Assembly: GCF_009914755.1 (NCBI RefSeq) | Contig: NC_060926.1 | Reading direction: 5' to 3' (one strand) | DNA length: 64,000 bases | Origin: the human T2T-CHM13v2.0 reference genome, Homo sapiens | Shown here: positions 37,736 to 46,663 of the stretch, in pieces | Layout of the letters: each line of letters begins with the position of its first letter | Position numbering within the stretch: the stretch's first letter is position 1 | Made by a program: the position numbers and the translations under genes | The notes under the pieces: generated by a model | The model's database searches: none | Seen by the model: only the letters and a program-made list of their open reading frames with translations | Told to the model about the DNA's origin: nothing

Positions 37736-37790
37736 CCCCTTAGTTGCCTTGAGACATAAAACTGATTGATGTCTCAAAGCAACTAAGGGG
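37736..37790. repeat. 22-bp inverted repeat (21/22 matched) with 11-nt loop
   Basis: ccccttagttgccttgagacat (37736-37757) versus atgtctcaaagcaactaagggg (37769-37790). Confidence 0.95.
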
Positions 37791-38630
37791 TCTCTACTGG
37801 TAGCCAGGATTACCGTTTCCTTGTAGGAAAACTGGTAGAGAAAATTGAGTTCTTATAATAAATTCCATAACAGCAGCTTAGCTGTAAATGATTTTTTAAA
37901 AGTCATTTGACTGTGCAAACTGGTTAGAGCATAAATATTTTAATGATATTTCAAGAGCTTAATGTCAACCATCAGTGTCCAATAAATGAAAATTACTTTT
38001 AGTGATACATCTGGAAATATGATGGTTTTTTGAGCCAAAGTCTCTCAAGCTTTGCATAGAATCTGAATTTTTATTTTTACTCTGTGCCTGTTATATAAAC
38101 TTCTTATATTTGTTAGAGGAAAAGAAGATAAATTGGACACTACCTGGGATATTGAAAAATGAATAAAATGTTAAGACATGTTAAATTTATTGTTGGCTCA
38201 TTGAGGGAAAGAAAGTCAATAATTTATTTAAGAAAAACAATTTTACTTAAAGAAAGGGCAATATTTTAATAAGCAGAAATAGGAGAGGGAATATATTTTC
38301 AAATGAAAGCAGCACCACTGGAATGAAAAATGTAATGTGCCAAAGTCGCTACTTTGAAGGGGAGCGTGCTCATCTGAATGTAAAATCTTGTTATATTCCT
38401 GTAAAACCCTAACTTTATTTTCATTCTTATCTGTTTAATCATTTAACTAATATTTATCAAATACCCACTCTGTGTAATGGTGTTGTGGGAGGAAATTGTG
38501 GGGCCACAAAGACCCCGGTGAAGGAACGCCAGAGCATGTGAAAGCAGAAGATGCATCATCAAAGGATACCCGAAGATGTCTAAAAGAAGCTCGGTGGGAA
38601 AGCTGAGTGCTTGGAAGAACCAGGGTAACA

Positions 38631-42277
<3,647 letters not shown>

Positions 42278-43040
42278 CTTCCTGGGGAGCCACCAAAGAA
42301 GGTCCCCATGGGAGTTAGGGGACCCTTACCCTCAGGAAGAGTCAGTCTATTACTTGGAAGGTCTAAATTTAAAAGATGTTACTGTACATACAGGAATAAT
42401 TGACTCTGATTATACTGGAGAGATTCAATTAGTTATTAGTTCCTCGACTCCTTGATCTGCCTCCCCAAGAAAAAGAATTGCTCAGTTGTTGCTGTTACCT
42501 TACATAAAACTAGGAAGCAGCACAGTGAAAAGAACAGGAGGCTTTGGTAATACTAATCCAGCATGAAGGGCCGTGCACTGGGTTAATCAAGTGTCTGACA
42601 AAAGACCTATTTGCACAGTAACTATTCAGGGAAAAGATTTTGAAGGAGTAGAAGATACTGGAGCTGATGTCTCTATTATTGCTGTAAATCAATGGCCCTG
42701 GCACTGGCCTAAGCAAAAGGCATCCATTGGTATTGTTGGAGTAGGAGCTGCCTTCAGAGTTCTTTGATTTTACCATGTCAAGGGCTGGATGGTCAGGAAG
42801 GGACAATTCAGCCTATCATTACACCTATTCCTGTCCATTTATGGGGTAGAGACTCATTGTAACAATGGGATGCTGAAATACCTATTCCTACGGATCAATA
42901 TAGTAATCGTAGTAGACAAATGATGAAAAATATGGGATATCACCTGGGAATAGGACTAGGAAAAGATAAAAATGGCCAATCAGAACCTTTAGAATTAAAA
43001 GGGCAAATAGATCGGACCAGATTGGGGTGTCATTTTTAGA
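42278..43040 (+). pseudogene. pro: HERV-K dUTPase-protease-G-patch remnant
   Basis: VHTGIIDSDYTGEIQL and RTGGFG (dUTPase); DTGAD at 42654 (aspartic protease); [19 protein letters not shown] (G-patch); internal stops. Confidence 0.92.
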
Positions 43041-44150
43041 AGCGGCCATCGTTGAGCCTCTGGCTCCCATTTCTCTTGTCTGGCTAACTGCCAAACCAGT
43101 TTGGGTGGAGCAATGGCTGCTGAAACAGGAAAAACTGGAGGCTTTAAAAGAACTGGTACAGGAACAATTGCAAAAGGGACATATAGAGCCTACTTTCTCC
43201 CCTTGGAATTCTCCTGTATTTGTCATTAAGAAAAAATCAGGGAAATGGAAAACGTTAACAGATTTAAGGGCTGTTAATGCTGTGATTCAACCCATGGGCG
43301 CACTGCAACCAGGGCTGCCCTCCCCAACAATGATCCCCAAATACTGGCCTCTCATAGTGATAGATCTAAAGGATTGCTTTTTTACCATTCCTTTAGCTGC
43401 CCAAGATTATGAGAAATTTGCTTTTACTGTTCCCGCCATAAATAATAAAGAACCAGCAGACAGATACCATTGGAAAGTACTACCACAAGGCATGCTAAAT
43501 AGTCAGACTATTTGTCAAACTTATGTCGGGAAAGCTATTAAGCCAGTTAGAGAACAGTTTAAAAAATGTTGTATCATCCATTCCATGGATGATATTCTGT
43601 GTGCAGCTGAAACTAGGGAAGAACTGATGTTGTGCTACAAACTGTTAGAAAAGGCTGTAAATGCAGCAGGGTTAATTATAGCCCTCGATAAAATCCAAAC
43701 TTCTACTCCCTTTCAATAAAGCCATGGCTACATTTTTTCAACAATGGAATATTGCCCATACTACGGGTATTCCACATAACTCACAAGGACAAGCAATAGT
43801 GGAAAGAGCTAATTGTACTTTAAAAACTCAAATACAAAAAGCAAAAGGGAGGGGACCAGGAATATAAGACACCACATATACAATTGCATTTAACTTTATT
43901 AACATTAAATTTTTTTAACTTACAAAAACATCAACCCATGACTGCAGCTGAACAACATTTGACAGGGCAAAAGGAAAATAAAAAGGCTGGACAAGATATA
44001 TGGTGGAGGGATGCACATACAAAGAGCTAGGAAAAAGGAAAATAATCTTATGGGGAAGAGGATTTGCTTGTGTCTCTCCAGGTGACAATCAGGTACCTGT
44101 GTGGGTGCCCACCAAACATCTAAAGATCTATCATGAGCCACAGCATCTAG
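43027..44150 (+). pseudogene. pol: HERV-K pol: RT N-terminal half fused by deletion to the IN C-terminal half
   Basis: [41 protein letters not shown] (YMDD mutated); after about 43718 [27 protein letters not shown] and [11 protein letters not shown]. Confidence 0.93.
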
Positions 44151-44923
44151 TGGACCCACCTGTACAGTGCAAATTGAAGGCTGAAGGATTGCTTTTAAGC
44201 CTCGATTTGCTTTCTCTGTGCCTTCTGTTAGAAGGGGCCTGCTTCTTGTTATCAATGGTAAGTTTTACCCCATGCTAATTAACCAAAGAGGCAGAAGCTG
44301 AGTTACAAATGCTTCAGCAATGGCATGCCTCCTGGCTGCAGCCACAAAAGTTTTTGCTTCTGTTTCAGTAGATTTACTAACGTGGCAGTGAGGGTAGGCT
44401 TGTGGTTTTGCAGGAGATAAGCAAAACATGTAGGTGCCCTCAAGATGTGTACGACCATGGAACAGGAGACTGGAAGGACCCATGGATCCCAACCATGGAC
44501 TGGGTTCCCCCAGTATGAGCCATGCTGAGAAACTGCTGGAGTGCCAAGGTTTTACCTATAGTTGCTTAACGGACCAGTGCTTTCTGACTGAACTCCTCTC
44601 TACCCTGAATACAAGAGACCCTAATAGGTAGGATCGCCCCTATTCAGCATGAAGAAGTTACAGAAGATGGACCTTCATCCTTCTGCAACCCCTAGGATTA
44701 AGGGTCCTCTTGTAAAAGGGAAAGGGGAGATATGTGGGAAGCATTCAAACCAGAGCAACTCCATTTTGAATAAGGGCTAAGAAAAATAAAGCTGGATCAC
44801 CAACCGGCAAATAAGGGCTGTACAGCCTGCAATTGCGTTGCTCAATTAATTTAAAAAAGAGGCCACCTTATGCTAATAATAATGATAGCTGTGGTGGTTT
44901 TTACAAAAAAGAGATGGGGGCCA

Positions 44924-45257
44924 TGTTGGGAGAAAAGCTGAGTGTTGGGAGAGAAGCTGAGGCAGGGCTTGCATGTCTGCTAGACGTGTTGGCTCCTTGC
45001 TTCTAGCACTCCCATTATCTCAAGCAGCCATGTTTTTCATTCACTTGATACACTGTTTCCTTTCAACCCCCACATCCTCACCACCTGTTTGAGCATCAAT
45101 AAATAGCGTGGGCTCCCAGAGCTCGAGGGCCTTTGCAGCCTCCACACTTGCGATGGCCCCCTGGTCTTACTTTCTCTCTCATACTTTTTCTCATTCCTTT
45201 GACTCTGCTGGACTTCATTGCCCTCAAGACCTGGTGTTAGGTCTTATCACCCCAACA
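44924..45257 (+). mobile_element. 3' LTR (LTR14A-like, 334 bp)
   Basis: tgttggg...cccaaca termini; PPT aaaaaagagatggggg at 44905-44920; AATAAA at 45098-45103. Confidence 0.9.
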
Positions 45258-46663
45258 ATGACTCCCTGCTCTATGAGCTGCAGAATTGATGTTGTGTTAT
45301 CAGGCAAGGAAACACATGAATCTCCTTGTACATTTTCATCAGAGCTCTGAGATGACTAGATGAATTGTCAATAAGTAGTAGTATTTTTGAAATAAATCTT
45401 TTTTTTTTCTAAGCAGTAGGTCTCAACAGTGGGCTTACAATATTCAGCAAACTATTCTGTAAACAGATGTGCTGTCATATAGACTTTGTTGTTCTATTTA
45501 AACAGCATATACAGAGTAGATTTAGTATAATTCTGAAGGGCCCTAGGATTTTTGGAATGGTAAGTGGGGTAGCTTCACTAGCTGCGTCAGCCCCTAACAA
45601 GAGAGTCGGCCTGTTTTGTGAAGCTTTAAAGTCAGGCATTGACTTCTCTCTAGCTATGAAATTACTAGATGGCATCTTCTTCCCATGGAAGGCTGCTTTG
45701 TCTATATTGAAAATCCATTGTTTAGTGTAGCCACTTTCATCAATGATCTTAGCTAGATATTCTGGATAACTTGCCGCAGCTTCTCCATCAGCACTTGCTG
45801 TTTCACCTTATGCTTTCATGTTAGGGGCATGGCTTCTTTCCTTCAACTTCATAAACCAACCTCTATTAGCTTCCAATTTTTTTTTCTCCTGCAGCTTCTT
45901 CACCTCTCTCGGCCTTCATAGAAGTGAAGAGAGTTAGGGTCTTGCTCTGGATTAGGCTTCTGCTCGGGGGAATGTTTTAGCTATCTTTAATCTGAACCAC
46001 TGAAACTTTCTCCATATCAGCAACAAGACTGTTTTGCTTTCTTATCATTCTTATATTCACTGGAGTAGCATTTTTAATTTCCTTCAAGGACTTTTCCTTT
46101 ACATTTACACTCTGGCTAACTGGTACAAGAGGCCTAGCTTTGGCCTATTTCAGCTTTTGACACCTTCACCTTCTTCACTAAGCTTAATCATTTTTAGCTT
46201 TTGATTTAAAGTGGGAAACATACAACTTTCACTTAGAGGGACTTGTAGGGTTATTAATGGTCTATTTTCAATACTGTTGCACCTCAGGGAATGGGGAGGC
46301 TGGAGGAAAGAGAGATGGAGAATGGCTTGTTGGTGTAACAGTCAGAACACACACATTTATCAATTAAGTTTGCTGTCTTATCTGGACACGGTCCATGGCC
46401 CCCCAAAACAATTACAATAGTAACAACAAAGATCACTGATCACAGGTCACCATAATGAATATAATAATAATGAAAAAGCTTGAAATATTGTGAGAATTAC
46501 TAAAATGTGACACAGAGACACAAAGTGAGCACATGTTTTTGGGAAAATGGCACTGATAGATTTGTTCAATGCAGAGTTACTTCAAACCTTCAATTTGTAA
46601 AAAAAAAAATGCAGTATCTTTGAAATGCAATGAAGTGAAGTGAAATAAAACAATGTATGTCTG
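45258..46663 (-). mobile_element. Tigger1 DNA transposon, 5' part only
   Basis: Transposase fragment (ORF 45475-45675: [26 protein letters not shown]); degenerate TIR atgtatgtctg followed by TA at 46664-46665. Confidence 0.9.

What the first reader, a model, noticed from the sequence alone, without database searches (positions are those of the whole stretch)
44181..44500. A collapsed second pol from a different HML lineage sits where env should be
Seen: right after the first IN end, pol motifs recur in the correct order, separated by large deletions: LKDCF (44181), [11 protein letters not shown] (44197), PASCYQW*VLP (44238), LTKEAEAELQ-MLQQWHASWLQPQK (about 44279), LLTWQ*G*ACGFAGDKQNM*VPSRCVRPW (about 44375-44460). 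They parallel the first pol ([45 protein letters not shown]) but are clearly divergent, so this is not a simple tandem duplication. Inference: recombination with another HERV-K group followed by serial deletion, perhaps retained for an RNA-level role. It may be common to env-less members of the family.
Basis: partly seen in the sequence, partly recalled or inferred. Interest (0 to 1): 0.7.

Follow-up and report, generated by a model that had tools for sequence, protein, structure and literature searches.

The report
HML-6 cassette replacing HML-1 env
In this fossil human retrovirus (HML-1/HERVK14) and at least 39 related copies, most of the envelope gene is replaced by a 715-base scrap of a different fossil retrovirus (HML-6), likely picked up once by template switching tens of millions of years ago; it encodes no protein and is likely a passenger.

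Summary
All five motifs lie at the stated places. They belong to a larger cassette (44143-44857) that replaces about 1.05 kb of env in an HML-1 (HERVK14) provirus. Its pieces map in order onto a natural HML-6 provirus on chr16 (318 of 401 bases, against 211 of 401 for the best HML-1 match). The cassette also holds a protease piece, HML-6 env ends and a class I (MER41-like) 3' end. About 2.6 kb of deletions and the class I piece are already present in separate HML-6-derived elements with their own gag, dUTPase and LTR, so the piece was likely captured already collapsed. Forty fetched HML-1 loci carry it; 36 of 40 pass a strict test for the same 5' junction, next to an 8-base microhomology. I found no sign of an RNA role: no Rfam hit, no folding or covariation excess, neutral-level divergence. 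Mosaic ERVs are well known, and an automated 2016 table already shows HML6 slices in HML1 chains without naming them. The two specialist papers could not be read. Verdict: a new or undescribed variant of a known kind; modest interest.

The parts
38631..38797 (+). 5' part of HML-1 gag; no 5' LTR in the window
   Evidence: ORF 38687-38944 parallels the published HML1 Gag by eye; the 3' LTR finds no second copy in the window; locus listed as HML1 rvnr 705 in Vargiu 2016 Table S1
38798..40597 (-). L1 insertion in gag, with 22-nt direct repeats at its ends (target-site duplication)
   Evidence: direct repeat D11 38798-38819 = 40576-40597; L1 ORF2-like frames on minus strand (name recalled)
40614..42288 (+). 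FAM8A3P, captured FAM8A1 mRNA copy in place of most of gag
   Evidence: hub annotation; HERV-K capture of FAM8A1 cited in PMC5131818 (passages)
42290..43040 (+). HML-1 dUTPase/protease (pro), broken by stops and shifts
   Evidence: translations; matches other HML-1 copies at 86-91%
42970..44142 (+). HML-1 pol: RT N-half, a deletion of about 1.43 kb at 43717, then the IN C-half
   Evidence: Pfam RVT_1 E=2.2e-34 and IN_DBD_C E=2.5e-6; gap against sister copies
44126..44142 (+). 5' capture junction: 8-nt microhomology (44126-44133) shared by HML-1 IN end and HML-6 dUTPase-protease linker; switch at about 44138-44142
   Evidence: env-bearing HML-1 loci L068-L070 match up to 44142 and then diverge; donor-type loci match from 44126
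44143..44180 (+).
   Evidence: 33/37 to L061 vs 21/37 best HML-1; L061 279-317
44181..44272 (+). HML-6 RT pieces ([26 protein letters not shown])
   Evidence: 32/34 and 33/42 to L061 vs 20/34 and 25/42 to HML-1; LKDCF alone is not diagnostic
44276..44365 (+). HML-6 RT thumb/connection pieces
   Evidence: 26/32 and 51/56 to L061 vs 18/32 and 28/56 to HML-1
44366..44550 (+). HML-6 IN C-terminal end and env-leader pieces; holds a branch-point-like TACTAAC and a splice-acceptor-like AG at 44412
   Evidence: 80% over 130 nt to L061 and 80% over 162 nt to L051; AG present in 36 of 40 hybrids; the splice role is inferred from recalled HML-2 anatomy
44551..44794 (+). class I (MER41/PRIMA41-like) internal 3' end, purine tract and first ~60 nt of its LTR
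   Evidence: 75-77% to non-HML class I loci L063 and L064, which continue into a full LTR; junction; name from con_prima41 slices in Vargiu Table S1 and recall
44798..44857 (+). HML-6 env end / 3' UTR up to the donor's purine tract (3' capture junction)
   Evidence: 80-92% to L060, L075 and L076, where it directly precedes the donor's LTR
44858..44924 (+). HML-1 env remnants (short SU scrap, env end) and purine tract
   Evidence: long-form hybrids L023, L024 and L053 keep SU and TM pieces 83-97% like env loci L068/L070; match resumes at 44881
44925..45258 (+). 3' LTR of HML-1 (LTR14A-type, 334 nt)
   Evidence: agrees by eye with the published HML1 LTR; LTR14A/B = HML1; subtype A recalled from length

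Best explanation
The stretch 44143-44857 is a collapsed HML-6 (HERVK3)-derived cassette that replaces the 5' ~1.05 kb of env in an HML-1 (HERVK14) provirus; it was likely captured once, already collapsed, by a double template switch during reverse transcription of co-packaged RNAs, and is likely a non-coding passenger. Step 1 (structures shown, order inferred): a non-autonomous HML-6 lineage lost most of pro, RT, RNase H, IN and env in steps and picked up a class I 3' end. Step 2 (junctions shown, mechanism inferred): RT copying an HML-1 genome jumped from env SU onto this RNA at its purine tract, copied about 0.9 kb, and jumped back at an 8-nt microhomology at the end of HML-1 IN. Step 3 (shown): the env-less hybrid spread to dozens of dispersed sites, lost further small blocks in two main subtypes, and lost most leftover HML-1 env. 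Step 4 (inferred): sub-lineages later captured FAM8A1 mRNA (this locus) or HERV-W sequence. Any advantage likely came from losing env, not from the cassette.
For: Collinear mapping on L061, whose env reads MLAVISCEV, exactly as Vargiu 2016 reports for the HML6 element rvnr 4362 on chr16. 318/401 vs 211/401 identity. Of the published group Pol sequences seen (HML1-9, by eye), only HML6 holds the RT and connection motifs together. 13 of 53 loci have HML-6 dUTPase upstream and no LTR14; 7 of them show the donor-type LTR. L067/L071 and L072-L074 carry the HML-6 pieces, the class I piece and the env end with no HML-1 sequence. L036, L045 and L055 share the exact pro|RT deletion of the hybrids. Same 5' junction in 36 of 40 hybrids by a strict test, 38 by eye. 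Tree: hybrids nest inside the deleted-donor clade (99), with L045 and L055 (86). Env-bearing HML-1 copies define both junctions. Neutral-level divergence and no structure signal. Double template switching at microsimilarities is the published model for such captures (PMC5131818, passages).
Against: No fetched donor carries both the final pro|RT deletion and the class I insert: L036, L045 and L055 break off before that point, so the direct donor is inferred. Hybrids alone form one side of a branch with weak support (35/60). Small 4- and 12-nt deletions do not sort cleanly between donors and hybrids, which points to later recombination or repeated loss. The 3' microhomology is only about 4 nt. 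HML10 Pol was not seen, and the published group sequences were compared by eye only. One block (thumb|IN junction through the splice-acceptor-like site) is kept in nearly all hybrids, so a role is not excluded.
Confidence: 0.85

Rival explanations
1. The cassette was kept for an RNA-level role (a splice acceptor, a second purine tract, or a packaging/export element) that helped env-less HML-1 amplify.
For: Present in 16 of 20 IN-bearing HML-1 loci (cross-read with 5, 12, 34). The block with the branch-point-like and acceptor-like sites survives in 39 of 40 hybrids (deleted in L050), and the class I purine-tract block in 40 of 40. One 120-nt window at 44160 has folding z=-2.5.
Against: Rfam: 0 hits at E<=1. 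Mean folding z -0.64 (10 cassette windows) vs -0.24 (35 others), and the lowest window is in the LTR. Pairs with changes on both sides: 0-2 per HML-6 region, the same as in the IN control; no consensus structure at all for 44366-44524 across 39 copies. Non-CpG divergence among 12 copies is 0.056-0.087 in the cassette vs 0.063 in IN and 0.072 in the LTR. The AG is kept in 36 of 40, about what neutral decay would give (my estimate). Wide sharing follows from single descent.
Confidence: 0.12
2. A full-length HML-6 pro-pol was captured by HML-1 first and collapsed afterwards.
For: Hybrids do show a nested series of later deletions.
Against: The three large deletions (about 745, 425 and 1465 nt against L061) have the same ends in elements with HML-6 gag, dUTPase and LTR and no HML-1 sequence. 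None of the 40 hybrids keeps any of those three blocks.
Confidence: 0.03
3. A DNA-level event in the host genome (nested insertion or gene conversion), or a duplication of the element's own pol.
For: LKDCF matches the own pol 14/15.
Against: No target-site duplication and no donor LTR at the cassette ends; same-strand replacement with loss of env; the same junction at dozens of dispersed sites; the own pol matches the other fragments only at shuffle level.
Confidence: 0.03

Closest known systems
HERV-K(HML-1) / HERVK14 with LTR14A/B, env-less variant (Flockerzi et al. 2005; not readable here, content recalled)
   Same: Same family and LTR; the locus is classed HML1 (rvnr 705). Env-less majority, HERV-W hybrids and mRNA capture are recalled from that paper's abstract.
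   Different: Here the sequence in place of env is resolved as HML-6 plus class I pieces, with junctions and a donor lineage. I could not check whether that paper says so.
HERV-K(HML-6) / HERVK3 with LTR3A/B (Vargiu 2016; Pisano 2019 not readable)
   Same: The cassette's pro, RT, IN and env pieces are HML-6 sequence.
   Different: About 0.4 kb of roughly 3.2 kb remains, with no reading frame, inside an HML-1 backbone. The donor is a deleted non-autonomous sub-lineage.
Mosaic HERVs such as Harlequin, spread by 'midwife' elements (Vargiu 2016, PMC4724089, passages)
   Same: Several same-sense chains with one mosaic structure and different flanks. Table S1's automated similarity images show a con_hml6 slice in 12 HML1 rows that I saw, followed by con_prima41 in 6 of them.
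   Different: The comments on those 12 rows and the text passages I saw do not name an HML1/HML6 recombinant; the RepeatMasker column calls the stretch HERVK14.
LTR-mediated capture by double template switch, e.g. FAM8A1 in HERV-K (PMC5131818, passages; Jamain 2001 not seen)
   Same: Replacement of an internal segment between short similar sequences, then further rounds of copying.
   Different: The captured RNA here is another retroviral group's defective genome, not a cellular mRNA.

Membership tests
HML-1 / HERVK14 (host provirus) | LTR14A/B-type LTR | tested here: met
   44925-45258 agrees by eye with the published HML1 LTR; LTR14A/B = HML1
HML-1 / HERVK14 (host provirus) | gag, pro and pol of HML-1 type | tested here: met
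   window translations parallel published HML1 Gag/Pro/Pol by eye; rvnr 705 classed HML1
HML-1 / HERVK14 (host provirus) | Lys primer-binding site behind a 5' LTR | tested here: inconclusive
   5' LTR absent from the window; only a possible PBS remnant near 38498-38505
HML-6 / HERVK3 (source of the cassette) | best and collinear match to HML-6 pro-pol-env rather than HML-1 | tested here: met
   L061 named HML-6 through MLAVISCEV
HML-6 / HERVK3 (source of the cassette) | better match to HML-6 than to every other HML group | tested here: inconclusive
   by eye only HML6 fits among HML1-9; LTKEAEAELQ alone also occurs in HML3; HML10 not seen; no computed comparison with group references
HML-6 / HERVK3 (source of the cassette) | LTR3-type LTR on the donor elements | tested here: met
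   one LTR type shared by L051, L060, L067 and L072-L076; resembles the published HML6 LTR by eye; not present in the window itself
Functional second pol gene | open frame with RT/IN catalytic cores | tested here: not met
   no Pfam family in the cassette in any of three frames read with X at stops; cores absent against L061
Structured cis-acting RNA element | conserved fold with covariation or an Rfam match | tested here: not met
Structured cis-acting RNA element | measured effect on splicing, export or packaging | not testable with these tools
MER41/PRIMA41 class I ERV (44551-44794) | match to the 3' end and LTR start of MER41-type elements | tested here: inconclusive
   75-77% to class I loci L063/L064; the family name rests on con_prima41 slices and recall, not on a repeat-library search

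The most novel reading that the evidence does not exclude
The main env-less HML-1 lineage is a three-source chimera whose success depended on the captured cassette: the HML-6 env splice acceptor, the class I purine tract, or both, gave the RNA a cis-acting function. An undescribed non-autonomous HML-6 sub-family then acted as a donor of cis elements between HERV groups.
Probability: 0.12. Interest if true: 0.65.

Novelty: new variant of a known kind. Interest (0 to 1): 0.35.

Why it matters
It indicates that RNAs of two distant betaretrovirus-like groups (HML-1 and HML-6) shared particles in the primate germ line, and that the dominant HML-1 form lost env by replacement rather than plain deletion. 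It orders the family's history: the cassette is likely older than the FAM8A1 and HERV-W captures. It also has a practical side. The RepeatMasker HERVK14 reference seems to include this HML-6 and class I sequence (Vargiu Table S1 calls the stretch HERVK14, and labels part of an LTR3B element HERVK14), so HML-1 and HML-6 copy counts and RNA-seq assignments can be cross-contaminated. No protein or host function is implied.

Tried and rejected
Tandem duplication of the own pol: rejected. Functional second pol: rejected. RNA structure: folding scan, alignment folding with pair counts and Rfam all gave nothing above controls. A second acceptor-like site made by the thumb|IN deletion (44351-44368) is common in hybrids but not fixed; no weight is put on it. 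Dating by LTR pair: impossible, no 5' LTR. Monophyly of hybrids from sequence alone: neither shown nor rejected (L036 and L062 left out for too few columns, L057-L059 left out as near-copies of L055). L062 was useful only for pro and RT, as it breaks off into other sequence. Flockerzi 2005 and Pisano 2019 are not held. Eight paper searches returned no listing that describes an HML-1/HML-6 chimera; most listed papers were seen only as listings. A computed comparison with HML-1 to HML-10 group references was not run; natural loci and a by-eye reading stood in for it.

Full report
Observation. The DNA has almost no similarity to the window's own pro-pol (best 15/16 nt, E=0.04).

The host element. 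The locus is an HML-1 (HERVK14) provirus. It has a gag start near 38631, an L1 insertion with target-site repeats, the captured FAM8A3P copy (hub annotation), pro, a pol with RT (Pfam E=2.2e-34) and a 1.43-kb internal deletion, and a 334-nt 3' LTR; there is no 5' LTR. Vargiu 2016 Table S1 lists it as HML1 rvnr 705, with the chain ending before the segment in question.

It is a family feature. A search of the window's genome with 44100-44760 gave 60 matches at 77-100% identity; 40 of 488 candidates were scored, so counts are lower bounds. With I held 40 distinct hybrid loci. All 40 have the class I piece and 39 have an LTR14-type LTR within the fetched flank. Of the 20 loci that matched the IN side of the query, 16 carry the cassette (cross-read; 3 of these by the class I motif only), 3 keep env in whole or part, and 1 was not examined.

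The source is HML-6. A pattern search led to a near-complete pro-pol locus on chr16 (L061). Its env reads MLAVISCEV, the sequence Vargiu 2016 gives for the HML6 element rvnr 4362 (passage). The window segment maps onto L061 in order: 44142-44180 to pro; 44196-44272 to RT; 44285-44365 to the thumb and connection; 44366-44524 to the IN end and env leader (split by an Alu in L061); 44526-44550 to the env signal region. Ungapped best matches total 318 of 401 bases for L061 against 211 of 401 for the best of five HML-1 references, which is shuffle level. Against my reading, the 15-nt LKDCF piece fits the own pol better (14/15 vs 11/15), and LTKEAEAELQ also occurs in the published HML3 Pol. Among the published Pol sequences seen (HML1-9, cut at about 400 letters), only HML6 has the whole set of motifs; HML10 was not seen.

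The cassette is larger than reported. After the env-leader piece, 44551-44794 matches the internal 3' end, purine tract and LTR start of class I elements (75-77%, L063 and L064). The MER41/PRIMA41 name rests on Vargiu's con_prima41 slices and on recall. Then 44798-44857 is the HML-6 env end that precedes the donor's own purine tract. Env-bearing HML-1 loci match the window up to 44142 and again from 44881. Long-form hybrids (L023, L024, L053) keep HML-1 SU and TM pieces after the cassette. So the cassette replaced about 1.05 kb at the 5' end of env, and the rest of env was lost later.

The collapse came first. Thirteen of the 53 loci, plus L067/L071, have HML-6 dUTPase upstream and no LTR14; 7 of the 13 show the donor-type LTR. 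They form a nested series: L075 and L076 have the large RT and RNase H/IN deletions; L067/L071 and L072-L074 add the class I insert; L036, L045 and L055 have the final pro|RT deletion seen in the hybrids. About 2.6 kb of deletion against L061 is therefore shared with non-HML-1 elements. Later, smaller deletions define two main hybrid subtypes; the window belongs to the one lacking 103 and 22 nt in the env leader. No fetched donor shows both the final deletion and the insert, because those three break off early. That link is inferred.

One capture. Thirty-six of 40 hybrids pass a strict test for the same 5' junction. L029 and L066 show it by eye, the L065 fetch starts downstream of it, and L012 lacks that part. 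An 8-nt identity at 44126-44133 joins HML-1 IN to the HML-6 protease linker; the 3' switch lies in the donor's purine tract with about 4 shared bases. In a tree of 360 columns and 50 rows, the hybrids nest in the deleted-donor clade (99) and group with L045 and L055 (86). Hybrids alone get only 35/60. A double template switch at short similarities is the published model for captures by LTR elements (PMC5131818, passages); applying it here is inference. Non-CpG distances among 12 copies of the window's subtype are about 0.06-0.09, compatible with the 30-40 million years given for HML-1 activity (PMC11359688, passage); the rate behind that statement is my assumption.

No evidence for an RNA role. 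Rfam gave 0 matches at E<=1. Folding z-scores average -0.64 in 10 cassette windows and -0.24 in 35 others. Alignment folding shows no more double-sided changes than in the IN or LTR controls, and no consensus structure for 44366-44524 over 39 copies. The cassette diverges as fast as its neighbours. It does keep a branch-point-like heptamer and an acceptor-like AG at 44412 (36 of 40; deleted in L050), which by recalled HML-2 anatomy would be the HML-6 env acceptor. That level of retention is what neutral decay would give, but a role during amplification cannot be excluded.

What is known. Mosaic HERVs and helper-driven spread of defective recombinants are described (Vargiu 2016: main-text passages; supplement 2 passages and part 6). 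In its Table S1, con_hml6 occurs 91 times. I saw places 9-24: 12 of these 16 rows are HML1 chains with an HML6 slice near the 3' end, 6 of them followed by con_prima41, and none of their comments names it. The signal is therefore latent in a published automated table but was not named in what I read. Eight searches showed no paper describing it. Kojima 2018 (passages) only lists the families. PMC9178832, PMC8156875 and PMC6995185 were seen as passages and reference lists. Flockerzi 2005, Pisano 2019, Jamain 2001 and the Repbase/Dfam entries were not seen, and any of them, or their supplements, may already state the HML-6 origin.

Verdict. This is a real inter-group chimera that marks the env-less HML-1 lineage, built from a pre-collapsed HML-6 cassette with a class I insert. 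It is non-coding and likely a passenger. It is a new or undescribed variant of a known kind; interest 0.35.

Noticed in passing
window 43717: The first pol itself lacks about 1.43 kb (RT thumb, RNase H, IN N-half) relative to sister copies.
   Followed up: partly
window 38480-38630: The provirus has no 5' LTR; its 5' end abuts AT-rich genomic DNA near a possible PBS remnant.
   Followed up: partly
L036, L045, L051, L055, L057-L060, L067/L071, L072-L076: A dispersed set of deleted HML-6-derived elements with shared deletion ends, some with a class I insert; it looks like a non-autonomous sub-family that I could not find described.
   Followed up: partly
L060 (G000:C7:151762089-151765121): An HML-6-derived element with the class I 3' piece placed upstream of the RT fragment rather than downstream.
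   Followed up: no
L013-L015, L022, L025, L026, L028-L030: These hybrids match the window only from about 44039 onward; several sit near chains that Vargiu Table S1 lists as HML1/HERVW hybrids (position match inferred), so the cassette is likely older than the HERV-W capture.
   Followed up: partly
L055, L057-L059 (C5) and L022/L025 (C6): Near-identical neighbours, likely segmental duplicates rather than independent insertions.
   Followed up: no
window 37736-37790: A 25-bp inverted repeat with a 5-nt spacer, 92% complementary (I2), upstream of the provirus.
   Followed up: no
L067 (G000:C1:160753450-160754550), 3' end: The donor-type LTR is followed by a short tandem repeat and an inverted copy of the LTR start.
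   Followed up: no
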